IMG/VR virus record: IMGVR_UViG_3300037583_000002
Location: 1-55,558 of that record
Source of the DNA: a virus
Taxonomy: Duplodnaviria; Caudoviricetes
Length of the DNA stretch: 55,558 bases
Strand: one strand, 5' to 3'
Shown here piece by piece: positions 299 through 55,558 of this stretch (positions are counted from its first letter, which is position 1; every line of letters starts with the position of its first letter). Below the pieces are notes generated by a model, which saw only the letters and a program-made list of their open reading frames with translations, had not been told where the DNA came from and did not search any database. The translations under genes were made by a program, and so were the position numbers.

Positions 299-1480
299 CT
301 AGATAACTGAAATCATTGAATTTTTAACGATTTCAATTTTTGCGGGGTCATCAAGGGTCCAAACCGGTTTAGCATCTGGAATGAATTTCCCATACACCTT
401 ACGAATCATTGCGGTGTCAGTATGCCCTAAATGGGCTGCAACTGTCGACTCCGGTTCACCAGCTTTTAGCATCCAACTGGCGAAACTATGTCGAGTAGTG
501 TAAGGCGCTAGGTAGGCTAAGCCTGCCTTGTTAAGTATTCCCTTCCAATGTTTGGTCGTGAACAGCCTTGACGACGTGTAAGGTTTCCCCATGCTCGTTA
601 CCCAAGCCCTGTCTGAATCGTGAGTCAGCAATTCTTGTTCTAAGGCCAATCTCGCGGAGGACGGAAGGTATATCTTTCTCGCTCGGCCACTCTTCGGCGA
701 TTGTTCTTCTCCGTACTGGGTTAAAGTGCGTTTCACAATTATATAGGGTAGACATACGTCCTCTCTCCTTAATGCTGCTGCCTCCCCTGGTCTTAAACCA
801 GACCAGAAAAGAAATGTAACTAAACGTTTACGGCTCTCACTGGTACAAGCTTTTACAATTCGCTCTGCTTCGTCAATCGTGAACACCTCATTGGACTCTA
901 TACCTTTATGTAGACCTTCGAGTGTTAGCGCTTTTGACTTCGACTCCACGGAATCTAGCATAGGACCAAATCTGTCCTCCTCAAGAACAAGTGCTCTAAC
1001 GGCGCGAGTCACAGCAAAACGTATAAGCCAAAGTCTAAAAGATGCCAACTCTGGTGAGGGCGACTTACTAATAATACCCTCCCTAAGTTCCATAGCCTGT
1101 TTTGGTGTAACGTTCGCCGCGTCTATATGGCCGTAATTCTCTATGACCCATTCCGCGCGTATTGTATAGGTATTATGGGTTGAGCCTTTAACCCTACCTT
1201 TTTTAGCTTTGATGAAGTGCTCTTGGATAACAGCACCCAGCGTTCGCTCGTCTTTTTTCAAACTTGGATCGTTTGGGAAATACTGCGCTAAATCAAACTG
1301 GCCTAAGCTAATATCCCGCCTTATAGCATTCAACATTTGCTCTGCGGCCTTGATATTTGCTTTAGTCGGTGGTATTCCTAATGATCGTTTCCACTGATTC
1401 TTTTCATTCGGTGGGCGAAATGCAATACGCAGCTTGTCTCTGTGTATTGTAATACCCTTGGGTAATTCTAAATCACTCAT
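299..1480 (-). CDS. int: Tyrosine integrase with N-terminal arm-binding domain
   Basis: SGLRPGE (R), SPKS (K), YTTRH (H/YxxR), HLGH and KVY catalytic motifs; CAGGAG RBS. Confidence 0.95.
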   Translation of the reverse strand: MSDLELPKGITIHRDKLRIAFRPPNEKNQWKRSLGIPPTKANIKAAEQMLNAIRRDISLGQFDLAQYFPNDPSLKKDERTLGAVIQEHFIKAKKGRVKGSTHNTYTIRAEWVIENYGHIDAANVTPKQAMELREGIISKSPSPELASFRLWLIRFAVTRAVRALVLEEDRFGPMLDSVESKSKALTLEGLHKGIESNEVFTIDEAERIVKACTSESRKRLVTFLFWSGLRPGEAAALRREDVCLPYIIVKRTLTQYGEEQSPKSGRARKIYLPSSARLALEQELLTHDSDRAWVTSMGKPYTSSRLFTTKHWKGILNKAGLAYLAPYTTRHSFASWMLKAGEPESTVAAHLGHTDTAMIRKVYGKFIPDAKPVWTLDDPAKIEIVKNSMISVI

Positions 1481-34948: not shown

Positions 34949-35386
34949 ATGTCAACCAACACATTATCACTTGATTCATTATTCGACACTGACGACTTAT
35001 TCGGTAGCGCTGCTGCCTATGAAGCAACACTTAACGCCCTAGATGCACCTGTGGAAACAGAGGAGGAGGAAATAGAAAAAATCCGTATACGCGCCTACAG
35101 CGAGGAGTATTACCAATGGATAGGCAAACGTATACCTACACCCGAGAAAAGCCCTGAGATAAATGCTGTGGAGGCGATAGTTGAGTCTGTAGCTGGTACT
35201 CACTGTAAAGCATGTAACGGAACAGGTCTGTACCGTATCCACAAGCACAACAAAGACATTCCATGCGCCAAGTGTGCTGGCAAAGGTAAAGTGACGGCTA
35301 TTGACGAAGCGCGTAGCCGTGCATACGCAGCACGCCGTGCTAAAGGTCTAGCGATGAGCACAAGCCACACTGACTACTTACACTAA
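34949..35386 (+). CDS. Protein with DnaJ-like zinc finger
   Basis: CKACNGTG and CAKCAGKG; GAGGT RBS. Confidence 0.8.
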   Translation: MSTNTLSLDSLFDTDDLFGSAAAYEATLNALDAPVETEEEEIEKIRIRAYSEEYYQWIGKRIPTPEKSPEINAVEAIVESVAGTHCKACNGTGLYRIHKHNKDIPCAKCAGKGKVTAIDEARSRAYAARRAKGLAMSTSHTDYLH

Positions 35387-36086: not shown

Positions 36087-36204
36087 AACACTCATCGAGC
36101 AACGAGCAACGACCACCGACCAACACACATCACTTAACAGAGACCGACTGCTGGTGAGCGGTTGGCCCATAACACAGAGCAACCATTACAGACGGGAGAA
36201 CACG

Positions 36205-37183: not shown

Positions 37184-37307
37184 TTTGTATAAAACGCGAA
37201 CACAGGTCGTGCCAGCGATCAACAACTGACCAGTAACTACTAAATTCTATTCTTTAACGCCCACTGACGGGCAAACACCATAAAACCATAACTTTTAGGA
37301 GACTGAT

Positions 37308-38294: not shown

Positions 38295-38337
38295 TAACAG
38301 TAACACTGTTGACATACGTTAGCAGTGTTTATATTAT
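38295..38337 (+). promoter_or_regulatory. Near-consensus sigma70 promoter with operator pair
   Basis: TTGACA(38309)-17bp-TATTAT(38332); TAACAGTAACACTGTTG 38295-38311; degenerate site 38320-38336. Confidence 0.85.
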
Positions 38338-39026: not shown

Positions 39027-39050
39027 AGTACAAAACACGGAGTACCAGTC

Positions 39051-44549: not shown

Positions 44550-44633
44550 TAGCAGTGTAGCTACTAAAAATAGATTTTATATTGCTGATTATTATTAGTA
44601 ACACTGTTAAAATTCGCAACCTGTTTACTAATA
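44550..44633 (+). promoter_or_regulatory. Extended -10 promoter with operator cluster
   Basis: Sites 44550-44566, 44593-44609 and half-site 44617-44633; TGtTAAAAT at 44605-44613. Confidence 0.7.
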
Positions 44634-44648
44634 ATTAATTTTAACGAG

Positions 44649-47515: not shown

Positions 47516-47733
47516 AAAAGCCAATCCTATACACCGCCCGAGGATGTAAATTCTGCCCTGACGTTAAATCATATGCTGAGTTAGCTGGCGTAGAACTTGA
47601 TGTTGTTCGCCTTTCGGAAAGTAATCCACATGGCCTCCGCTCAGCGCCAGCGATTGAGCATAATGGTGAGATTTACATAGGGATAGACGATTGTGCGGCG
47701 TTCATTCGCCGCTTTGCGAAGGAGGCCGCGTAA
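47512..47733 (+). CDS. Glutaredoxin / NrdH-like protein
   Basis: LYT..GCKFC, RSAP.I...G....G. Confidence 0.85.
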   Translation: MKKPILYTARGCKFCPDVKSYAELAGVELDVVRLSESNPHGLRSAPAIEHNGEIYIGIDDCAAFIRRFAKEAA

Positions 47734-48767
47734 TGGACTTTGCTGCCAAACTTAAGGCCAAGGCCGCTGAGTCTGGTCAACAAACAATTCAAGGCAAAAG
47801 CAGTACGCCCAAGCCTTCGGACGCTGTGAAAGCTGATAGCAAGGAGGGTCTAGCAGCAATGCTAGGCGCTCGTGCTAAAGAAACAAAACAAAAAGCGGTA
47901 ATCACGCAAGCATCAAAAAACAACAAGATTAAAAAAGCGGGAGATTTGAATGCTCTATCGGATGCACTTAAACAAGCGAAGCAAACGCGAGAAGATGAAC
48001 GCGGCGCAATGGTCGTCGACTTCCCAACAGCAGCTGTCAAAGCCTGGTCATTCTCAACGCTCAAGAAGTTCGAAAACTGTCAATGGGCAGTCAAACTAGG
48101 CAAAGTAGACAAAATCCCTGTTGAGTCTGGTGAGGCCGCACAACGCGGAACAGTCATTCACGACGGCTGCGAGGCATGGGTTCGTGGTGACGTAGAAGAA
48201 TTGCCAGCGGACAACCGCACCAAATTCGACCAATTCTCAGCGGACTTCTCTAGTCTGCGTGAGGACTACCGTGAAGGTAAAATCACGATGGAAGAAAATT
48301 GGGGTATCCGCAAAGATTGGTCGCCGTGCGATTGGGATGACGACGAGCTATGGGGCCGTGCGAAACTTGACGTGTTTATCCGTGAGAATGAAAACTCTTG
48401 CCGCATCATTGACTATAAAACAGGTCAGAAGTTTGGCAACGAAATGAAACACGCTGACCAAGGGCTAAGCTACGCGCTGCACACGATGTACCGATTCCCT
48501 GAGATTGACGTGTTTAAGGTCGAGTTTTGGTATTTAGACGACGGCACCAAGATGGTTCGCACGTTCAACCGTCGTCAGCTGGGCATGTTATTACTTCGCT
48601 ACCATAACCGTGCCAAGAAACTAACAACGACCAAAGACTTCATACCTACAGCTAACGCGCATACGTGCCGTTTCTGTGAGTACGGCTGCAACACTAACCG
48701 TGATGGTAAAGCATACGGTAACGGCGCATGTGGTTTTGACCACTATCGAGGTTTAGATGTTGCATAA
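47733..48767 (+). CDS. PD-(D/E)XK (Cas4/RecB-like) exonuclease
   Basis: WSFS.L..FE.C, RGT.IH, KLD, IIDYKTG, Q...Y, C.FCEY. Confidence 0.9.
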   Translation: MDFAAKLKAKAAESGQQTIQGKSSTPKPSDAVKADSKEGLAAMLGARAKETKQKAVITQASKNNKIKKAGDLNALSDALKQAKQTREDERGAMVVDFPTAAVKAWSFSTLKKFENCQWAVKLGKVDKIPVESGEAAQRGTVIHDGCEAWVRGDVEELPADNRTKFDQFSADFSSLREDYREGKITMEENWGIRKDWSPCDWDDDELWGRAKLDVFIRENENSCRIIDYKTGQKFGNEMKHADQGLSYALHTMYRFPEIDVFKVEFWYLDDGTKMVRTFNRRQLGMLLLRYHNRAKKLTTTKDFIPTANAHTCRFCEYGCNTNRDGKAYGNGACGFDHYRGLDVA

Positions 48768-50142
48768 AAAAGAGAAACCGACATTTAAGCCGTTCGCCCA
48801 CCAAGAGGCATTTGCTAACTTGTGGGGTGATAAAGAGCGCGTGTTGAACTTCGATGGATGCGGGACGGGCAAAACGCTCGCCTGCATTCATGCAGTGAAA
48901 ACGTACTGGCCTGATGCGCGTGTTCTTGTACTCGCGCCACTATCCATTTTAACGCCAGCGTGGGCTAAAGACCTACGTTTCGGCTGGCCCGAAGCAACCT
49001 ACGCTATCGCTGCGGGTACTGCCGCCAAAAAACGTAAAGCCTTCGAAGGTAATGCCCAATGGGTAATCACGAACCACGACACGGTTAAGATGATAGACAA
49101 CGAGGGCTACGCGCCTAAATTCGATGTCCTCATTGTTGACGAGGGTGACGCCTTCCGAAACAGAACGTCCATGCGTTCCAAGTCAATTAACCGTATAGCA
49201 GGTGACATTGAGAAAATGGCACTTATGACGGGTACACCCTCCCCTAACACCATTCTCGACATTTGGCACTTAGCGTTCCTCATAGACCGAGGTGAGCGCC
49301 TTGGCAAAAACTTCTTTGGCTTTCGTCAACAAGTATGTGATCCACAAGTCATTGCGGGTGCGCCAATTGGGGCAACGAAATGGGTTGATAAAGCCGGTGC
49401 AGCAGACCATGTGACACTGATGCTATCTGACATTACTTCCCGTGTTGCGCTTGATGACGTTCAAGAGTTGCCAGAGACCATTTACCGAGAGGTAACGGTT
49501 GAGCTACCTAAGAAGATACGCCGTGACTACGAGTTCCTTAAACGTGAGTCAGTATTGGCGTTGGAGAGCGGCGAAATGCTGAATGCCGTCCACGCGGGTT
49601 CACGTATGCAGAAGCTACTGCAAACGCTGTCGGGTGGCGTGTACAACGAAGATGGATCAGTCATTAACGTACACAAAGAACGTTATGAGCTGGTGCTTGA
49701 TTTGGTTGAAGAGACAGACCACGCGCTTGTTGCGTTCAACTGGACACATCAGCGTGACGGCCTAATAGCCGAGGCCAAAAAACGAAAGATGACTTACGCG
49801 GTAATAGATGGTGACACGCCATCATTGGAGCGTAACCGAATCGTTCATCAATTTCAGCAGGGCAACATTCAAGTGATTTTCGCTCACCCACAATCAGCGG
49901 GGCACGGTTTGACATTGACTATGGCGAATCGTGTTATTTGGGCAAGCCCTACTTATCGTGCCGACCTATACGAGCAGTTTAACCACCGTATCGTACGAAC
50001 AGGCCAAAAACGTAAGACCGAGATTATTCATATTGCGGCTGAGGAAACGGTAGAAGAAGAAGTCTACCAGAAGATGCTCAACAAGCAGATGAACATGATT
50101 GACTTACTAAACACTATCGCAGGACTGTCGCAAGCAGCCTAA
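48757..50142 (+). CDS. SNF2-like SF2 helicase
   Basis: GTGKT, VDEG, MTGTP, AGHGLTL, Q...RI.R.GQ. Confidence 0.93.
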   Translation: MLHKKEKPTFKPFAHQEAFANLWGDKERVLNFDGCGTGKTLACIHAVKTYWPDARVLVLAPLSILTPAWAKDLRFGWPEATYAIAAGTAAKKRKAFEGNAQWVITNHDTVKMIDNEGYAPKFDVLIVDEGDAFRNRTSMRSKSINRIAGDIEKMALMTGTPSPNTILDIWHLAFLIDRGERLGKNFFGFRQQVCDPQVIAGAPIGATKWVDKAGAADHVTLMLSDITSRVALDDVQELPETIYREVTVELPKKIRRDYEFLKRESVLALESGEMLNAVHAGSRMQKLLQTLSGGVYNEDGSVINVHKERYELVLDLVEETDHALVAFNWTHQRDGLIAEAKKRKMTYAVIDGDTPSLERNRIVHQFQQGNIQVIFAHPQSAGHGLTLTMANRVIWASPTYRADLYEQFNHRIVRTGQKRKTEIIHIAAEETVEEEVYQKMLNKQMNMIDLLNTIAGLSQAA

Positions 50143-50173
50143 CCACAACTTTTACATTATAGAGAGAACCATT

Positions 50174-50545
50174 ATGAGCAACTTACCTTTAAACAAATTC
50201 CAAATCACAGCAGCAGACTTTGACCTTGAAGCGTTCAACGAGGCCGTAAAAGACGTTCGCCACACGCGCAAGCAAGTTGTTGAGTTCGGTAGCGACTTCG
50301 AAGAAACACGCGAGAAGTTAGTTGAAGCTGAAGAAGGTTTAAAAAGCGCTATGGCCGACTTGAACCTTGACGAGATAACGAAGCTAACCGCCGAGTGCAA
50401 ACGACTAAAAGCCAAGTTGCAAACTACGCCAGTAACCAAAGTGCAAGCATTCGACGAAGCGATGGACAAGTTACACGCTTTCTTCGAGGCTGGTTGCCGT
50501 GTCCCAAAGGAATTAGCTGAAAACACAGAACAAGAGGCAGCATAA
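50174..50545 (+). CDS. Hypothetical coiled-coil protein
   Basis: GAGAG RBS; leader complementary to candidate sRNA at 51022. Confidence 0.75.
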   Translation: MSNLPLNKFQITAADFDLEAFNEAVKDVRHTRKQVVEFGSDFEETREKLVEAEEGLKSAMADLNLDEITKLTAECKRLKAKLQTTPVTKVQAFDEAMDKLHAFFEAGCRVPKELAENTEQEAA

Positions 50546-50546
50546 A

Positions 50547-50975
50547 ATGTCAGCAGCAGAGAAGTTAAAAGAAGAATTTGACCTATCAGATATCCCCGCT
50601 AGCGAGCTACCAGACCGTAAGGCTGTAGTTACCGAGTTATTTCGCGTACGTCGCGAGATAGCTCTAATAGAAGCTGAGCAATTAAAAGCCCTGAAAGAGC
50701 GTAAAACCGAGCTTGAGAACTACTTAAAGGCAACCTTAGAAGTAGGCGAAAAAGTGGCTTACGTTGGCATAGGCGCTGTATCTATGAGTGAAGAAACACA
50801 GCCCTCTGTTACTGATTGGGACGCATTGTACGAGCACATTAAAGACAATGATGCATTTTACCTTCTACAACGTAAAGTCAATGCAGCGCCGTTCAGAGAG
50901 CTTATTTCGATGGGTGACTCACTAGCAGGTGTAAAACCTGTTCAAGTGCGAAAACTATCGGTGCGTAAAAATTAA
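50547..50975 (+). CDS. Conserved phage replication-module protein
   Basis: V.DWDALY..I......LLQR.V motif common beside phage SSB genes. Confidence 0.75.
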   Translation: MSAAEKLKEEFDLSDIPASELPDRKAVVTELFRVRREIALIEAEQLKALKERKTELENYLKATLEVGEKVAYVGIGAVSMSEETQPSVTDWDALYEHIKDNDAFYLLQRKVNAAPFRELISMGDSLAGVKPVQVRKLSVRKN

Positions 50976-51016
50976 TTAGTAATACTGTTGACTTGTATTA
51001 ACAGTGATACTAATAT
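50974..51016 (+). promoter_or_regulatory. sigma70 promoter with operator pair
   Basis: TTGACT(50988)-17bp-TAATAT(51011); operators 50974-50990 and 50999-51015. Confidence 0.85.
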
Positions 51017-51021
51017 TGCAG

Positions 51022-51099
51022 CCTCAACTGGTTCTCTCTATGTACTTGTTGTGGTTGCTTGCTAACCCCCTACTTCCTAGTCAGTTGTTGGGGGTTTTT
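51022..51099 (+). ncRNA. Candidate ~78-nt trans-acting antisense sRNA
   Basis: Between promoter and AACCCCC/GGGGGTT+T terminator; no plausible ORF; complementary to 50130-50171 and 53216-53237. Confidence 0.65.
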
Positions 51100-51165
51100 C
51101 GATCAAACTATTTGATCCAATGACTCATTAACGATTAACAAATAACGAATATAAGGAATACCATC

Positions 51166-51870
51166 ATGGCGAATAACACTAACGTAGCTGTTCAAGCGGA
51201 AAAATTCGGCGGTGTAGCAACTCTCGAAGAACGTGGCGATTACGTTGGCCGTGGCTCAGAGAATGTAACCACAGACGATTTAGCCATTCCTCGCTTGAAA
51301 TTGTTACAAATGATCAACCCAGAAGTAGAGCCTGGCAACCCTAAACAAGTTGAAGGTGCGCAAGCTGGTATGATCATGAATAGCGTTACAGAAGAACTGT
51401 ACACATCGCTTTTCCTAATCAATTTAAGCTTTACAAAGAAAATCGTTGTATGGCGTAAGCGTAAGTTAGGTGGCGGTATGGTCGGTTCATACGACACAGA
51501 ACAAGAAGCCCTAGACGCACTAGAAGAACAAGGTCTAGCGGTTAAAGACCATGATATTTCTGAGAACCCTACTCACCTAGTATTACTTCTAGACGACGAA
51601 GGTAATCCGAAATCTGTTGCACTACTTGATATGCCGGGGGTTAAAGTCAAAAAGTCACGAATCTGGAATACCCTGATTAATGACGAAGAAAAACAAGGCA
51701 ACCCTCGCTTTGGTTGTGTGTGGCAATTAGGCGTTGTGTCTGAGTCTAATAGCTCAGGTAATTTCTTCAACTACGACGTATCACTTGTAGCTCATGCTCC
51801 TGACGAGTTATACGATCAAGCTGTTGAAATGTATAGCGCTTTATTTGCTTCAAAGACCGAAGCAGCATAA
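51166..51870 (+). CDS. Single-stranded DNA-binding protein (putative)
   Basis: G.ENV..DDL.IPRLKLLQ...P motif of phage SSB-like family; AAGGA RBS. Confidence 0.7.
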   Translation: MANNTNVAVQAEKFGGVATLEERGDYVGRGSENVTTDDLAIPRLKLLQMINPEVEPGNPKQVEGAQAGMIMNSVTEELYTSLFLINLSFTKKIVVWRKRKLGGGMVGSYDTEQEALDALEEQGLAVKDHDISENPTHLVLLLDDEGNPKSVALLDMPGVKVKKSRIWNTLINDEEKQGNPRFGCVWQLGVVSESNSSGNFFNYDVSLVAHAPDELYDQAVEMYSALFASKTEAA

Positions 51871-51892
51871 TAGCCCTACCACTTTAGGGCAT

Positions 51893-51922
51893 TGGCCGAC
51901 TCGTTTTTGGGTCGGCTTTTTT
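51893..51922 (+). terminator. Intrinsic terminator
   Basis: GGCCGACTC/GGGTCGGCT plus T run. Confidence 0.8.
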
Positions 51923-52109
51923 GTGTAAAATATTAAAGCAAAATGAATGAATGTTTAAAGTTTGATCATAAAAATTTACTATTTTTTGAATCTTTAGTTA
52001 ACAATTAATTTTTTATTAAATTTCATAAAATTAACACTTCAAAACACCTTTACAATACTTTACATTAGCGCCTTAAATTTTTGGTGGCCAATGGTAACAG
52101 GAGAATATA

Positions 52110-52658
52110 ATGGTCAGCGATTACATGGTGGACATCGAGTCTATGGGCACGAACGCAGGTGACGCGATTCTGTCAATCGGCATTGTTCCAATGGATTTAA
52201 AAAACAAAAAGATACACAAAGGCTACTACACTCGTATTAGCCTCGAAGATAGCCAAAAAGCGGGTTTCAACATCGACGCGAGTACCGTCCTATGGTGGCT
52301 ACAGCAAGAGCAAGCAGCGCGTGACGAGTTCAAGGGTAACTACGCACATAAGCCAGTTAAAGACGCACTAATCGAGCTAAGCGAGTTTATCGCTGAACAA
52401 TCGAAAGGTGTACCAGCAGATGAGATACGTCTATGGGGTGATGGTGTAGCAATGGACAATGCTCTGATAGCCGAAGCCTTCAAGATTTGTGGCCTCCCCC
52501 GCCCTTGGTCATACAGAGGCGATATGTGTTACCGCACTATTAAGAACCTAACCCCGCAAATTGAACGAGTTGAGCCAACTGTTGCCCACCACGCATTATT
52601 CGATGCGGAGGCACAAGCGCATACTCTATTCAAACGACTAGAGGCGTTAGGCCTGTAA
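52110..52658 (+). CDS. DEDDh 3'-5' exonuclease (DUF5051-like)
   Basis: MVDIES, T..WW..Q, WG.G..MD, HHAL.DA..QA. Confidence 0.88.
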   Translation: MVSDYMVDIESMGTNAGDAILSIGIVPMDLKNKKIHKGYYTRISLEDSQKAGFNIDASTVLWWLQQEQAARDEFKGNYAHKPVKDALIELSEFIAEQSKGVPADEIRLWGDGVAMDNALIAEAFKICGLPRPWSYRGDMCYRTIKNLTPQIERVEPTVAHHALFDAEAQAHTLFKRLEALGL

Positions 52659-53113
52659 TGATTGAGTCACAGTACACAGCGAACGTCGGCAAAAAGCTGA
52701 GTTCTGACATAATGCGTACGTGGAAAATCAACGATAATTTCGCGGGTGGCGTACCTGACGCATTTTATCGGCACCGCAATGGAAAGCGCCCGTTATGGGC
52801 TGAGTACAAATTCATAAAGACACTACCCAAGCGGCCTACGACGGTCGTTAAGCCCGACTTATCTGCACAGCAGCTATTGTGGCTTAATGAAGCTGTAGAG
52901 TCCAATGAGCTTGCAGTAGTGATCATCGGCTGCGAAGCCATAAAACATCAACGACAAGTTTGTGGTGTTGTCCTAACTGACCCTAGCGAATGGGTTAACG
53001 GCATAACCGCCGAAGAATTTGCCAATCGTGCAGAGAAATTAAACTACACAGCTATAGCAGCATTTATTGAGGAAACTACATTAGAGGGGGGGCTTTCAGA
53101 CCATCGATTATAA
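52658..53113 (+). CDS. VRR-NUC / Holliday junction resolvase-like nuclease
   Basis: GVPD...WAEYK...LS.QQ..WL. Confidence 0.8.
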   Translation: MIESQYTANVGKKLSSDIMRTWKINDNFAGGVPDAFYRHRNGKRPLWAEYKFIKTLPKRPTTVVKPDLSAQQLLWLNEAVESNELAVVIIGCEAIKHQRQVCGVVLTDPSEWVNGITAEEFANRAEKLNYTAIAAFIEETTLEGGLSDHRL

Positions 53114-53181
53114 GGAGGCTAGATCGGCTGGAGGCCACTCCGAATGTGGTGTTCATGTCTTAGCAAACGTTAACATATGCG

Positions 53182-53230
53182 TTGACATGTAACAGTGCTA
53201 CTGTTAAATTATGTATAAGCAACACAACCA
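53182..53230 (+). promoter_or_regulatory. Repressor promoter with operator in spacer
   Basis: TTGACA-17bp-TAAATT with TG extension; TAACAGTGCTACTGTTA at 53190-53206; degenerate site at 53214. Confidence 0.85.
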
Positions 53231-53248
53231 CAACGGGGAATTTTTAAG

Positions 53249-53851
53249 ATGGAATACAGTAATGATGTACTAAAGAAAGTACAGCTTGCATGGTCATCCC
53301 ATAAAGATGCTACGGCGCTAAGTCAGGCCAGAGCAGCAAAGGCTATGGGCATGAACCAGTCGGCTTTCAGTCAATATCTGAGAGGGACGATTCCGCTTAA
53401 CACTGACTTTTTGACTAAGTTCACTGCTTTTACAGGGCTAGAACTATCTGACTTCGGTGCTTCCTCGGACACTGTTCCCGAGAAGCCGTTACGAGTATTA
53501 GCAACACTGTCGGGTCGCAAACCAACGAACCCGTCAGTGCTTGTACAAACCATACTCGAATGCGACGAGTCGTATTTCATAGAAGTGGATTACGACGACT
53601 TCGGCCTAAGAAAAGGGTCAATGCTGCTCGTTAATCCAAAGGGTAACGTACGGGATGGCGACAGAGTGGTTTACCTTCGTAAGAAGGGACAACCAATTGT
53701 GTTTGGTGAGCTATCAGAAACCGAAGAAGGCTGGGAGATCTTGGAACAACTCTGGCAAGGTGGAAGACGCTATTTAGTTGACCCTAAAGACGATGTTTTT
53801 AGAGTCGTGTCTGTATATAATCCGCAAGCTAGGGGGAGAAAATTTAGATAG
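53249..53851 (+). CDS. CI-like HTH repressor with degenerate S24 domain
   Basis: LSQARAAKAMGMNQSAFSQYLRG.IPLN HTH; S24-like C-terminus lacking GDSM Ser and catalytic Lys. Confidence 0.85.
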   Translation: MEYSNDVLKKVQLAWSSHKDATALSQARAAKAMGMNQSAFSQYLRGTIPLNTDFLTKFTAFTGLELSDFGASSDTVPEKPLRVLATLSGRKPTNPSVLVQTILECDESYFIEVDYDDFGLRKGSMLLVNPKGNVRDGDRVVYLRKKGQPIVFGELSETEEGWEILEQLWQGGRRYLVDPKDDVFRVVSVYNPQARGRKFR

Positions 53852-53879
53852 AGTACGAGTGTGTACTAAAGGAATTTAA

Positions 53880-54290
53880 ATGCCTGACTCAGCACAACAA
53901 CACGACATAATAGAAAAATCGCCCCACTACAATACCCGTTCGGTGGAGGCTATTCACTTTATTAGGCATATGGATTTTGCGACAGGTAATGCGTTTAAAT
54001 ATATTTGGCGCTACGGCCTGAAAGACACAACCGACTTGGAACGCGGAAAGAGAAATTACTACATTAAGAACGCCCTTATATACAGACCCAACTTTGTATC
54101 TGAGGACGTTGGTCACTGCATGATTCGCATGTTATCAGCAATGGCCGAAGAATTTGAAAGAGAACAATTCGAGCTTTTAGTTGCCCTTATATCTGCCTCT
54201 ATGGGTGACTATGAAATGCTAATCGCGCGTGCTAGGCAGCTTGAGCTGTTCCCAATCGCCGCAGAACACTTACTGCTGAATGGGGGTTAA
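53880..54290 (+). CDS. DUF3310 family protein
   Basis: PHY....EAI......F..GNA.KY.WR.G.K...DL. Confidence 0.85.
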   Translation: MPDSAQQHDIIEKSPHYNTRSVEAIHFIRHMDFATGNAFKYIWRYGLKDTTDLERGKRNYYIKNALIYRPNFVSEDVGHCMIRMLSAMAEEFEREQFELLVALISASMGDYEMLIARARQLELFPIAAEHLLLNGG

Positions 54291-54474
54291 TATGGCTTTT
54301 AACGTTGAGTGGGTAACGCTTAACGCTATGGCTAAGGCAACGGGTTACACCGTTGCCGCCCTACGTAGCAAAATTAAGCGTGGACAATTATTTGAGGAAA
54401 AGCACTGGCGCAGAGCGCAGGACGGGCGTTTACTCATACATGTAGAAAATTTTAACGACTGGCTTAAACAGTAA
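54280..54474 (+). CDS. Excisionase-like winged-helix protein
   Basis: WV......TGYT..ALR.KI..G...E..HW....DGR..I....FN.W; true start may be ATG 54292. Confidence 0.8.
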   Translation: MGVNMAFNVEWVTLNAMAKATGYTVAALRSKIKRGQLFEEKHWRRAQDGRLLIHVENFNDWLKQ

Positions 54475-55434: not shown

Positions 55435-55558
55435 GGGGCTGTTGATCTTTGTAGTACATATATCAATCAGCCCACATTGGTAGCCACATCATAGTAAATG
55501 CTAAAGCGAGCATTGAATGATAATTTCGTTCAAGCTTTTCATACCGCGTGGCTATCCC
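55435..55558 (-). mobile_element. Right end of IS5-family element with transposase C-terminus
   Basis: Minus strand 55558-55463 reads GIATRYEKLERNYHSMLALAFTMMWLPMWAD*; IR GGGGCTGTTGATCTTTGTAGTA preceded by TA. Confidence 0.9.

What the first reader, a model, noticed from the sequence alone, without database searches (positions are those of the whole stretch)
51022..51099. Operator-controlled sRNA antisense to the repressor leader: possible RNA-based lysis/lysogeny toggle replacing Cro
Seen: a promoter (TTGACT-17-TAATAT) covered by two operators reads about 78 nt into a terminator. This RNA pairs with the leader of ORF 50174 in colinear blocks: 13 bp perfect over the RBS (51029-51041 with 50159-50171), 9 bp (51048-51056 with 50141-50149) and 6 bp (51057-51062 with 50130-50135). 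It also pairs with the repressor leader: 10 bp perfect at 53225-53234, extending by G-U/G-C pairs into the GGGG RBS. Both leaders share the layout AAGC-N5-AACCACAAC. Weaker matches precede ORFs 36205 (36178-36201), 37308 (37284-37292) and 39051 (39040-39049). No divergent cro is visible. Inference: the repressor silences the sRNA and the sRNA silences repressor translation, forming a mutual-inhibition switch.
Basis: partly seen in the sequence, partly recalled or inferred. Interest (0 to 1): 0.85.

Follow-up and report, generated by a model that had tools for sequence, protein, structure and literature searches.

The report
Phage leader RNA with anti-RBS complementarity
A repressor-controlled promoter in a marine temperate phage makes a short leader RNA that is complementary to the ribosome-binding site of a nearby phage gene and, in some relatives, to the start of the repressor's own message, so it may be an RNA switch part, but no experiment shows this yet.

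Summary
A promoter flanked by two operators (50988-51016) precedes about 78 nt that end in a GC hairpin plus T5 (51064-51099). Every stated pairing block is at the stated coordinates.

The 13-bp match to the RBS of ORF 50174 is the best complementary site in the whole window. It persists in four lineages, with two compensatory changes in one. In a fifth pair of records (L013/L020) both partners have a different sequence and are still complementary.

The repressor-leader match is only 10 bp in the window, which is chance level there. It is 16 and 13 bp in two sister lineages. It is absent from L013/L020, absent from L033 and weak in L021.

The same stretch is also the 5' leader of the gp34-like gene and the 3' end of the upstream operon. 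A cis long-range helix is predicted in all four lineages tested. An outgroup, L028, has the promoter but no hairpin.

No discrete RNA could be shown.

Verdict: a real, conserved anti-RBS RNA element. The "sRNA toggle replacing Cro" is plausible only for a subclade and is unproven. I rate it a new variant of a known kind, interest 0.6.

The scan had also noted this stretch's seed (e1-6343941) and the operator regulon (e1-6343937) on this same window.

The parts
50975..50989 (.). Operator-like palindrome O1 (2 mismatches to AACAGTNNNACTGTT), abutting the -35 hexamer
   Evidence: 15 sites against 3.05 expected; conserved in relatives
50988..51016 (+). Sigma-70-type promoter TTGACT-17-TAATAT
   Evidence: 9 of 12 matches; -35 invariant and -10 TAATAT or TACTAT in 6 of 6 aligned relatives
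51000..51014 (.). Operator-like palindrome O2, in the spacer and overlapping the -10 hexamer
51022..51099 (+). Predicted leader RNA or short RNA of about 76-80 nt. The start is inferred from the -10 hexamer, the end from the U-run
   Evidence: no transcript data
51022..51054 (+). Predicted 5' stem-loop SL1. CCUCAAC pairs with GUUGUGG, and the anti-RBS sequence lies in the loop
   Evidence: stronger in L011 and L012
51029..51041 (+). Anti-RBS block, 13 nt perfectly complementary to 50159-50171
   Evidence: longest complement in the window; top-ranked site; compensatory changes in L012/L018
51048..51063 (+). G/U-rich core, invariant in 6 of 6 relatives. Complementary to the repressor leader, and to 50141-50149 and 50130-50135
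51064..51099 (+). GC hairpin (7 bp plus inner pairs, loop of 13-19 nt with a conserved TAGTCAGTT) followed by T5. Terminator-like, probably leaky
   Evidence: Not listed by the terminator scan. T-run degenerate in L011, L012, L018 and L020
50130..50173 (+). Leader and RBS of ORF 50174, the main pairing target (blocks 50159-50171, 50141-50149, 50130-50135). It includes the stop codon of the SNF2 helicase gene at 50140-50142
50174..50545 (+). ORF of 123 aa, coiled-coil, no family found
50547..50975 (+). ORF of 142 aa, Pam3 gp33-like (DUF7307 lead). Its start is coupled to the stop of ORF 50174
51166..51870 (+). Pam3_Gp34-like gene (PF23977, E 1.7e-53). It has no other convincing promoter, so it depends on read-through of the hairpin
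51894..51917 (+). Strong intrinsic terminator after the gp34-like gene
   Evidence: 10 pairs, loop of 4, T-run
53182..53210 (+). Repressor promoter TTGACA-17-TAAATT, with a perfect palindrome (53191-53205) in its spacer
53218..53237 (+). C/A-rich 5' end of the repressor leader, complementary to the core. 10 bp at 53225-53234, plus G-U and G-C pairs extending into GGGG, plus AGCAA (53218-53222) after a 2x1 loop
   Evidence: The block CAACCACAACGGG is invariant in 5 of 5 aligned leaders
53249..53851 (+). CI-like repressor (HTH_31/HTH_3, weak S24-like C-terminal part)
   Evidence: RNA-library contigs cover it in 4 of 4 runs laid

Best explanation
**Setting.** The window is a temperate phage whose closest named homologs sit in Pseudoalteromonas. 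The repressor-controlled promoter at 50988 is the promoter of the gp34-like gene.

**Anatomy.** The first 40 nt or so of its transcript carry an anti-RBS sequence (51029-41) displayed in a 5' stem-loop, and a G/U-rich core (51048-63). A GC hairpin with a U-run (51064-99) follows. That hairpin probably stops part of the transcripts, giving a short RNA of about 78 nt. The remaining transcripts read on into the gp34-like gene.

**Inferred action.** This RNA segment base-pairs with the translation-initiation region of ORF 50174 and lowers its translation, and that of the coupled gp33-like ORF. It could do this in trans from its own promoter. It could also do it in cis, because it is the untranslated 3' end of the upstream operon transcript.

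In the window's subclade the invariant core also pairs with the extreme 5' end and SD of the repressor mRNA. Once the prophage is derepressed, or on infection, this RNA could damp new repressor synthesis, giving a double-negative loop.

**What is shown.** Sequence anatomy, conservation, covariation and predicted folds.

**What is inferred.** The transcript ends, termination, pairing in vivo, the direction of regulation, and which protein binds the palindromes.

**My odds.**
- The pairing with the 50174 RBS is functional (cis or trans): about 0.75.
- A discrete short RNA accumulates: about 0.6.
- The repressor pairing is functional in this subclade: about 0.45.
For: **Pairing strength in the window.** The 13-bp perfect complement to the 50174 RBS is the longest in the window. 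It is the top site of an energy scan of both strands. Only 0.0005 of 11102 windows score as well, which is the site itself.

**Seed shuffles that reach the observed energy at the 50174-type leader, of 1000** (Watson-Crick pairs only):
- window 0
- L011 3
- L012 0
- L013 0
- L020 1

**Covariation.**
- L012/L018 carry two double-sided changes relative to the window: target AACCA to AACTA with sRNA TGGTT to TAGTT, and target TATAG to TAAAG with sRNA CTAT to CTTAT.
- In L013/L020 (gp34 66% identical) the leader RNA has a different sequence. It is still complementary to the homologous leader: TCACCCATA, 9 bp, plus GACAA. That is the second-best site in the locus.

**Repressor leader.**
- 16 contiguous bp in L011 and 13 in L012/L018. 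0 of 1000 shuffles reach either. The sites rank first and second in their loci.
- The conserved block of the leader is exactly the complementary part plus the SD.
- The RNA core is invariant in 6 of 6 relatives, while the spacer after the hairpin diverges.

**Architecture.** Promoter, short leader, then hairpin plus U-run is present in 7 lineages with unrelated stems: window clade, L011, L012/L018, L013/L020, L021, L022 and L033.

**Not a coding element.** The 27-codon frame starting at ATG 51040 is ATG-TGA in L011 and L012.

**Temperate context.** Integrase at 299-1480(-), xis-like ORF at 54280-54474 and a CI-like ORF.
Against: **No transcript data for the RNA.** The RNA-library material available was assembled contigs only.

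**Weak terminator evidence.**
- The hairpin was not called by the terminator scan, because of its loop size.
- Its fold z-score is only -1.52.
- Its U-run is degenerate in L011 (CTTATTG), L012/L018 (TTTATTG) and L020 (ATTTAC).
- Within the close clade, stem covariation is modest: 2 of 10 pairs change on both sides, and 54 of 500 shuffles reach the score.

**The window's own repressor match is weak.** It is 10 bp. 24 of 1000 shuffles do as well, 0.008 of windows with Watson-Crick pairs only and 0.09 with G-U. It shows no two-sided compensatory change, because the RNA core never varies.

**The repressor link is not general.**
- L013/L020, L021 and L033 show no convincing repressor pairing.
- L021 and L033 show no pairing to a 50174-type leader either.
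- L022's leader is about 35 nt, a hairpin only.
- L028 has the promoter and no hairpin.
- C/A-rich AAGCA-type repressor leaders also occur in L028 and L033, which lack a complementary core. Conservation of that leader may therefore have its own cause.

**Composition effect.** The seed is G/U- and C/U-rich and the leaders are purine- and C/A-rich. With G-U pairs allowed, energies discriminate poorly. In whole-transcript folds, 9 of 30 shuffled seeds still give 10 or more leader-seed pairs.

**A possible cut or start inside the pairing site.** One RNA-library contig ends at 53230 directly against adapter sequence. This is a weak hint only.
Confidence: 0.5

Rival explanations
1. **Cis-only long-range helix.** The 51029-51062 segment matters as the untranslated 3' end of the upstream operon mRNA (primase to SNF2 to 50174 to 50547). 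It folds back about 870 nt onto the 50174 leader. This closes the RBS, or creates a double-strand RNase site that brackets the two-gene cassette. The promoter serves only the gp34-like gene, and the repressor-leader match has no function.
For: - The minimum-energy folds of the 0.7-1.0 kb RNA from the leader to the hairpin contain the leader-seed helix in 4 of 4 lineages tested: 33, 33, 31 and 17 pairs, with pair probabilities up to 1.0.
- The real sequence exceeds all 30 seed shuffles (maximum 21 pairs). Its energy is -285.4 against -261.4 to -273.7 kcal/mol.
- No plus-strand terminator-like site was found between 50174 and 51064.
- The pairing blocks start at the end of the SNF2 gene and stop one base before the hairpin.
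- The 50174 pairing is the one that is conserved widely. The repressor pairing is not.
- There is precedent for 3'UTR to 5'UTR anti-SD pairing in icaR mRNA (PMC3868564; I saw the title and the start of the abstract in the listing).
Against: - The promoter sits immediately upstream of the seed in every lineage, so the seed is also made as a free 5' end.
- The 16-bp and 13-bp repressor matches in L011 and L012 (0 of 1000 shuffles) and the invariant core are unexplained by a purely cis role.
- Ribosomes finishing the SNF2 gene at 50140-50142 would disturb two of the three blocks.
- Energy models ignore translation and kinetics.
- 9 of 30 shuffled seeds still give 10 or more pairs.
Confidence: 0.25
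2. **Transcription attenuator only.** The conserved unit is promoter plus promoter-proximal terminator, a gate on gp34-like expression. It would be opened by an unknown antiterminator, or simply be leaky. The short RNA is a by-product. Complementarities reflect composition and shared ancestry.
For: - The hairpin plus U-run is kept in 7 lineages, while the sequence 5' of it is not.
- L022 has a hairpin-only leader of about 35 nt.
- L021 and L033 show no leader pairing.
- The gp34-like gene has no other convincing promoter.
- ORF 34949-35386 has a weak hit to a Q-like antiterminator family (phrog_127, E 8.3e-4) and zinc-finger motifs.
Against: - Compensatory changes in L012/L018 and re-created complementarity in L013/L020 at the same target are not expected of a by-product.
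- The 20-nt core is invariant in an otherwise diverging intergenic region.
- The antiterminator lead is far below any curated threshold.
Confidence: 0.12
3. **Host-directed sRNA.** The invariant G/U-rich core is conserved because it targets C/A-rich leaders of host mRNAs (a GcvB-like seed). The phage targets are secondary.
For: - The core is invariant across lineages whose phage targets vary.
- It is G/U-rich, and its phage partners are C/A-rich.
Against: - No Rfam family matches the region at gathering score. At E up to 10 there are only rli38, RNA-OUT and an IRES, all far below their thresholds, and no GcvB.
- No host genome was at hand to test targets.
- L013/L020, L021 and L033 lack this core.
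Confidence: 0.08
4. **Chance or a DNA-level feature.** The complementary blocks would be inverted repeats or a protein-binding site, with no RNA role.
For: The window's 10-mer at the repressor leader is at chance level: four matches of 10 nt or more were seen and about 3.5 are expected. AACCACAAC with up to 1 mismatch occurs 23 times against 14.2 expected, and 2 of 100 shuffles reach 23.
Against: - The 13-mer is the best site in the window.
- 0 of 1000 shuffles match it.
- The site covaries.
- Its position is exactly over an RBS.
Confidence: 0.05

Closest known systems
P1/P7 c4 antisense RNA (immI region)
   Same: A phage immunity-region RNA of similar size. It is encoded in the same transcription unit and on the same strand as its target. 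It pairs through short separated blocks with the RBS region of another gene of that unit. The properties are recalled. The paper by Citron and Schuster (1990) was seen only as a reference-list entry in PMC12197685.
   Different: - In P1 the target lies downstream of the RNA; here it lies about 870 nt upstream.
- There is no sequence or structure match to any Rfam family. That Rfam holds a c4 model is recalled, not checked.
- The target here is a replication-module ORF and possibly the repressor itself, not an antirepressor.
P22 sar RNA and lambda OOP RNA (cis-antisense regulators of ant and cII)
   Same: Short phage RNAs that tune the lysis-lysogeny circuit by pairing with an mRNA (passages of PMC12197685).
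   Different: Those RNAs are transcribed from the opposite strand and overlap their target. Here the RNA and both targets are on the same strand, do not overlap, and share only partial complementarity.
Lambda Cro (protein)
   Same: In the toggle reading, the product of a repressor-controlled lytic promoter feeds back negatively on repressor synthesis.
   Different: - Cro acts on transcription at the operators. Here the feedback would act on translation and would be made of RNA.
- There is no divergent promoter pair.
- The link is confined to a subclade.
icaR mRNA 5'-3' UTR interaction in Staphylococcus aureus
   Same: An anti-SD sequence in the untranslated 3' end pairs with the SD region of the same mRNA (PMC3868564; title and start of the abstract seen in the listing). 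This matches the cis rival predicted.
   Different: Here the helix would span two genes within a polycistronic phage mRNA. The 3' segment also has its own promoter.
Lambda PR'-tR' 6S RNA with Q antitermination
   Same: A promoter followed closely by a terminator gives a short RNA unless transcription reads through into the downstream genes (recalled).
   Different: - No qut-like element was identified, and the only Q-like lead is one weak hit.
- The promoter here carries repressor-type operators.
- The short RNA carries conserved anti-RBS complementarity.
GcvB-type G/U-rich seeds and sRNA-regulator double-negative loops
   Same: A G/U-rich single-stranded core facing C/A-rich elements next to an SD. 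Mutual repression between an sRNA and a transcription factor is a known bacterial motif (for example PMC10746234, title and start of the abstract seen in the listing).
   Different: There is no homology to GcvB by Rfam. No phage example of an sRNA that pairs in trans with its own repressor's mRNA appeared in my searches.

Membership tests
Trans-encoded base-pairing sRNA | Own promoter | tested here: inconclusive
   Consensus match of 9 of 12. The -35 hexamer and both operators are conserved in 6 of 6 relatives. No transcription start data.
Trans-encoded base-pairing sRNA | Discrete short transcript | not testable with these tools
   Only assembled contigs of RNA libraries were available, and these cannot show small RNAs or transcript ends.
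Trans-encoded base-pairing sRNA | Seed complementary to a target translation-initiation region beyond chance, and conserved | tested here: met
   50174 RBS: top site in the window. Between 0 and 3 of 1000 shuffles reach it in 5 records. Compensatory changes are seen. Repressor leader: met in L011 and L012, marginal in the window, not met in L013, L020 and L033.
Trans-encoded base-pairing sRNA | Regulation of the target in trans | not testable with these tools
   Needs reporter assays. A cis helix is equally predicted.
Intrinsic (Rho-independent) terminator | GC-rich stem | tested here: met
   Stem of 7 bp with 5 G-C pairs plus inner pairs. 90% of cells pair across 6 relatives.
Intrinsic (Rho-independent) terminator | Short loop (3-8 nt) | tested here: not met
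   The loop is 13-19 nt in the window clade, and the site is not listed by the terminator scan. The loops are short in L013, L020, L021, L022 and L033.
Intrinsic (Rho-independent) terminator | U-run directly after the stem | tested here: inconclusive
   T5 in the window clade, L013 and L021, and T4 in L022. Degenerate in L011, L012, L018, L020 and L033.
P1/P7 c4 antisense RNA | Homology of sequence and structure | tested here: not met
   No Rfam family reaches its gathering score in the window. None but rli38, RNA-OUT and an IRES appear at E up to 10 in 50950-51200. That a c4 model is in Rfam is recalled.
P1/P7 c4 antisense RNA | The RNA precedes its target in one operon and is processed from it | tested here: not met
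   The target 50130-50171 lies upstream of the RNA. Processing is not testable.
GcvB | Match to the family model | tested here: not met
   no match.
Cis-antisense RNA (sar or OOP type) | Transcribed opposite to and overlapping its target | tested here: not met
   The RNA and both targets lie on the plus strand, 870 nt and 2.1 kb apart.
5'-3' UTR long-range anti-SD helix (icaR type) | A 3' untranslated segment complementary to the SD region of the same transcript | tested here: met
   Complementarity. The helix is present in the minimum-energy folds of 4 of 4 lineages and exceeds 30 of 30 shuffles.
5'-3' UTR long-range anti-SD helix (icaR type) | Both arms lie on one transcript in vivo, with an effect on translation or RNase cleavage | not testable with these tools
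   No plus-strand terminator-like site between the arms. No transcript data.
CI/LexA-type repressor with operators | HTH DNA-binding domain, and palindromic sites at promoters including its own | tested here: met
   HTH_31 at E 3.2e-5 (below the Pfam cut-off) and phrog_4. 15 palindrome sites against 3.05 expected, including a perfect one in its own promoter. A different palindrome accompanies the divergent repressor of L028. Binding itself was not tested.

The most novel reading that the evidence does not exclude
In this group of Pseudoalteromonas-type temperate phages, a repressor-controlled trans-acting small RNA would form a double-negative feedback loop with the phage repressor. It would do so by pairing with the extreme 5' end and SD of the repressor mRNA. 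That makes it an RNA counterpart of Cro. The same RNA would throttle an upstream replication-module gene through a second, co-evolving seed. Its invariant G/U-rich core might in addition reach C/A-rich host leaders.
Probability: 0.28. Interest if true: 0.82.

Novelty: new variant of a known kind. Interest (0 to 1): 0.6.

Why it matters
Known phage lysis-lysogeny RNAs are either cis-antisense (OOP, sar, anti-Q) or act on antirepressor genes (c4).

In my literature searches I found no phage RNA that is switched off by the repressor and in turn pairs with the repressor's own message. If the subclade pairing is real, it gives a minimal two-part bistable circuit, one protein and one RNA, in an uncultured marine phage group.

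The homolog names point to culturable Pseudoalteromonas hosts. That makes the circuit directly testable.

Whatever the outcome for the toggle, the conserved and co-evolving anti-RBS pairing is a clean natural case. One RNA segment can act as a 3' end in cis, as a 5' leader, or as a free sRNA. It is therefore a useful model for telling these modes apart.

Tried and rejected
**Database and similarity searches.**
- Rfam on the whole window at gathering score: 0 matches.
- Rfam on 50950-51200 at E up to 10: only rli38 (20.5 bits against 49), RNA-OUT and an IRES. All rejected.
- blastn of 50100-53900 against phage records: no match.
- tblastn of the repressor against phage records: no match.
- tblastn of the gp34-like protein: 511 records, all under 60% identity. 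None was used for the leader comparison.

**Energy methods that did not discriminate.**
- RNA.duplexfold on leaders, and a hybrid scan with G-U pairs and 2-nt loops, gave -25 to -34 kcal/mol for many unrelated sites. The seed is G/U-rich. I also saw that the greedy ORF set had taken the antisense ORF 50152-50526 in place of ORF 50174.
- I moved to Watson-Crick-only or 1-nt-loop scans and to shuffles.

**18-mer core search in viral contigs.** Of the 5 hits, 2 (L005 and L008) are unrelated AT-rich contigs. I dropped them.

**Small-protein reading of the RNA.** Rejected. The 27-codon frame from ATG 51040 is ATG-TGA in L011 and L012.

**Efforts to get more lineages.**
The 20 or more further lineages could not be fetched.
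- The class-level genome search found the gene in 1 of 400 scored genomes, which was G001 itself. One further genome was not scored.
- The genome-contig scan gave 2 loci, both near-identical to the window.

**RNA libraries.**
- 4 runs were laid, from at most 3 samples and 3 studies. Contigs lie only at 49704-49983 (one run), at 52090-52556 and from 53230, 53241 or 53249 onward.
- There is no cover of 50002-52005. This is no evidence of absence, because contigs drop short and rare RNAs.
- DNA carry-over in these libraries was not excluded.

**Rows left out.**
- L010 and L014-L018, which are near-identical to tested rows.
- L022 and L023, which are fragments without target leaders.
- L028, which has no hairpin.
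- L033 was tested separately. Its best sites (12 and 10 nt) fall inside coding regions and remain unexplained.

**Other points.**
- L035-L054 (gp34 39% identical or less) were not examined.
- The protein atlas gave nothing above 0.77 for the 123-aa ORF.
- Supplementary files of papers were not opened. Supplementary Table S1 of PMC12197685, which lists 38 uncharacterised phage sRNAs, may bear on the novelty claim.
Full report
**Context.**

The window is a 55,558-bp virus record, estimated 88% complete. Structural genes lie on the minus strand up to about 33.1 kb. Early and replication genes lie on the plus strand from 33.4 kb.

The finding sits in a replication module. The gene order is:
- PD-(D/E)XK nuclease (47691-48767)
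- SNF2 helicase (48757-50142)
- a 123-aa coiled-coil ORF (50174-50545)
- a 142-aa ORF (50547-50975), Pam3 gp33-like by the atlas at score 0.96
- the intergenic region in question
- a Pam3_Gp34-like gene (51166-51870; PF23977, E 1.7e-53)
- a strong terminator (51894-51917)
- an exonuclease gene
- a 151-aa ORF
- a CI-like ORF (53249-53851; HTH_31/HTH_3 and a weak S24-like part)

The phage is temperate. It has an integrase at 299-1480(-) and an excisionase-like ORF at 54280-54474. Relative L013 carries an integrase next to the same module.

Names attached to homologs of the gp34-like protein point to Pseudoalteromonas hosts. They are P. espejiana DSM 9414 at 96% identity and a multispecies Pseudoalteromonas entry at 85%.

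**The observation.**

- Promoter: TTGACT-17-TAATAT.
- Operators: two palindrome-type sites flank and overlap the promoter. The motif AACAGTNNNACTGTT, with up to 2 mismatches, occurs 15 times against 3.05 expected. 0 of 100 shuffles reach 15. Nearly all sites are intergenic, and a perfect copy lies inside the repressor's own promoter.
- Hairpin: the predicted RNA ends in AACCCCC...GGGGGTT followed by T5. Its loop is long, so the terminator scan did not list it. The fold is only modestly better than shuffles (z -1.52).

The exact-complement search confirms the pairing blocks.
- The 13-mer over the RBS of ORF 50174 is the longest complement in the window.
- The 10-mer in the repressor leader is one of four matches of 10 nt or more. 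That is about what chance gives in 111 kb.

**Relatives.**

Protein-guided searches gave these lineages:

| Lineage | gp34 identity |
|---|---|
| Window clade: L010, L014, L015, L016, L017 | 98-100% |
| L011 | 85% |
| L012 and L018 | 84% |
| L022 (1.1-kb fragment) | 70% |
| L013 and L020 | 66-67% |
| L021 | 60% |
| L033 | 54% |
| L028 | 54% |

Seven lineages keep the same architecture. An operator or operators plus a promoter lie directly after the gp33-like gene. A leader of 30-80 nt follows. Then comes a hairpin with a U-run. Then comes an A/T-rich spacer and the gp34-like gene.

The stems are unrelated in sequence between lineages. This argues for a conserved structure. Within the close clade, covariation is modest: 2 of 10 pairs change on both sides, and 54 of 500 shuffles reach the score.

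The U-run is degenerate in L011, L012, L018 and L020.

L022's leader is hardly more than the hairpin.

L028 has an operator palindrome of different sequence and a TATAAT box. These run straight into a C/A-rich leader of the gp34-like gene with no hairpin.

I conclude that the promoter is first of all the gp34-like gene's promoter. The hairpin-bearing leader is an addition within a clade.

**Pairing with the ORF 50174 leader.**

This is the robust part.
- In the window it is the top site of a Watson-Crick energy scan over both strands.
- In L012 it is the top site of its locus. In L013 it is second. In L011 it is fourth with Watson-Crick pairs only, and among the top sites with G-U allowed.
- Dinucleotide shuffles of the seed reach the observed energy in 0, 3, 0, 0 and 1 of 1000 trials for the window, L011, L012, L013 and L020.
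- L012/L018 differ from the window by two double-sided changes that keep the helix.
- L011 loses 2 bp through a one-sided change.
- In L013/L020 the leader RNA has a different sequence. It is nevertheless complementary to the homologous leader just upstream of and within the RBS: TCACCCATA plus GACAA.
- L021 and L033 show no such pairing.

**Pairing with the repressor leader.**

The core GTTGTGGTTGCTTGCT is invariant in 6 of 6 aligned relatives, while the spacer beyond the hairpin diverges.

The repressor leader keeps CAACCACAACGGG in 5 of 5 aligned sequences, with variable flanks.

| Lineage | Complementarity to the repressor leader |
|---|---|
| Window | 10 bp, plus 5 bp after a 2x1 loop, plus G-U/G-C pairs into the SD |
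| L011 | 16 bp contiguous |
| L012/L018 | 13 bp, plus 4 bp after a bulge |

In L011 and L012, 0 of 1000 shuffles reach these values, and the sites rank first and second in their loci. In the window, 24 of 1000 shuffles do as well.

The block begins at the predicted transcription start of the repressor mRNA.

There are four counts against this pairing.
- There is no two-sided compensatory change, because the core never varies.
- These three lineages share ancestry.
- L013/L020 (783 and 721 of 1000 shuffles), L021 (14 to 156 of 1000) and L033 lack it.
- C/A-rich AAGCA-type leaders occur in L028 and L033 without any complementary RNA.

**Structure of the RNA.**

In each lineage the 5' part is predicted to form a stem-loop. 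In the window, L011 and L012, the 5' end (CCUCAAC) pairs with part of the core, and the anti-RBS sequence sits in the loop region. In L013/L020, a 10-bp stem presents UUGUC in the loop. That layout is typical of antisense RNAs, but it is a prediction only.

**Cis or trans.**

No plus-strand terminator-like site lies between ORF 50174 and the hairpin. Upstream operon transcripts should therefore carry both arms.

Folding the whole 0.7-1.0 kb RNA puts the leader-seed helix into the minimum-energy structure in 4 of 4 lineages, with 33, 33, 31 and 17 pairs.

In the window this exceeds 30 of 30 mononucleotide shuffles of the seed. The shuffle maximum is 21 pairs, and the energy is -285.4 against -261.4 to -273.7 kcal/mol. 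But 9 of 30 shuffles still give 10 or more pairs, which shows a composition effect.

A purely cis mechanism is thus a serious rival for the 50174 target. The repressor mRNA has its own promoter beyond a strong terminator, so pairing there would have to be in trans.

**RNA libraries.**

The only RNA data available were assembled contigs. In 4 of 4 runs laid (at most 3 samples, 3 studies), contigs cover the repressor gene from 53230, 53241 or 53249 onward, and the 5' part of the exonuclease gene.

This fits a repressor that is expressed where the phage is carried. DNA carry-over was not excluded.

One contig ends at 53230 directly against adapter sequence. That is 13 nt downstream of the predicted start and inside the pairing site. 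It is a weak hint of a start or cut there.

Nothing can be said about the short RNA from these data.

**Mechanism proposed.**

With the repressor absent, the 50988 promoter fires. Part of the transcripts stop at the hairpin, giving a short RNA. The rest express the gp34-like gene.

The 5' segment pairs with the 50174 translation-initiation region. This limits the 123-aa ORF and the coupled gp33-like ORF relative to the rest of the operon. The pairing may occur free, as an mRNA leader, or as the 3' end of the upstream mRNA.

In the window, L011 and L012/L018, the core additionally covers the 5' end and SD of the repressor mRNA. That would damp repressor translation and reinforce the lytic state.

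- Shown: anatomy, conservation, covariation, predicted folds.
- Inferred: everything about transcripts and regulation.

**Comparison and novelty.**

It works most like the P1/P7 c4 RNA: same-strand, same-unit, multi-block pairing with an RBS. In the cis reading it works like the icaR 5'-3' UTR helix. It is a member of neither (see the membership tests).

No Rfam family matches.

The review passages I read list VpdS, PreS, 24B_1, PAK_P4as15, sar, OOP, anti-Q and c4. None is a repressor-controlled RNA that pairs in trans with the repressor message. The listings showed none either. I saw only titles and abstract starts there, and no supplements.

I therefore class the finding as a new variant of a known kind. 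The conserved 50174 pairing is well supported. The Cro-like toggle is an attractive but unproven subclade feature.

**Limits.**
- Few independent lineages were available.
- There are no transcript ends.
- No host genome was at hand.
- Which protein binds the palindromes is inferred, not shown.

Noticed in passing
window 51125-51155; L017 4930-4990; L012 and L018 upstream of gp34; L021 2330-2365: A tandem repeat of 7-8 nt of the TAACGAAT type lies between the hairpin and the gp34-like RBS. Its copy number varies among near-identical strains: L017 has two more copies than the window, L012 has 4, and L018 has 3. L021 has AACACTT four times at the same place. Its function is unknown. It could be a translational enhancer or a binding site.
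   Followed up: partly
window 51076-51084 (hairpin loop): The loop sequence TAGTCAGTT is invariant in 6 of 6 relatives although the stem varies. The segment 51080-51090 is an 11-nt perfect complement of 37220-37230, in the leader of ORF 37308 (pair I19). About 2 such matches are expected by chance. The relatives' homologous region was not fetched.
   Followed up: partly
L012 4267-4797: In L012 the 123-aa and 142-aa ORFs appear fused by a deletion: residues 1-110 of the first are joined to residues 60-142 of the second. Its close relative L018 has both genes whole.
   Followed up: no
L033 4100-4500: A GC-rich, highly self-complementary non-coding spacer of about 380 nt lies between the leader terminator and the gp34-like gene. 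L028 has a similar structured stretch after its gp34-like gene.
   Followed up: no
L033 5417-5428 and 5952-5961: The L033 leader RNA has a 12-nt and a 10-nt perfect complement to the same seed. Both lie inside coding regions downstream of gp34. Unexplained.
   Followed up: partly
window 52090-52556 and 53230-54000: RNA-library contigs from 4 runs cover only these two stretches of 50002-54000. One contig end at 53230 abuts adapter sequence. The AT-rich region 51920-52110 carries a promoter-like site (52031-52059) without a palindrome.
   Followed up: partly
window 34949-35386: A 145-aa ORF with CXXC-type zinc-finger hits (Anti-TRAP and DnaJ_CXXCXGXG, both below the cut-offs) and a weak hit to a Q-like antiterminator family (phrog_127, E 8.3e-4). 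It is a possible partner for the promoter-proximal hairpin.
   Followed up: no
window 38296-38337 and 44594-44635: Two further early promoters share the layout of a palindrome, the -35 hexamer, a second palindrome-like site and the -10 hexamer (family D2). No hairpin-terminated leader was obvious after them.
   Followed up: partly
L028 7378-7396 and 10500-10520: The divergent repressor of L028 (34% identical) goes with a different palindrome. AAACAAG-N5-CTTGTTT lies at the gp34 promoter, and a related ACAAG-N5-CTGTT lies at its own promoter. This suggests that operator and repressor co-vary.
   Followed up: partly
window 55463-55558 and window start: A fragment of an IS-type transposase runs off the right end.
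   Followed up: no
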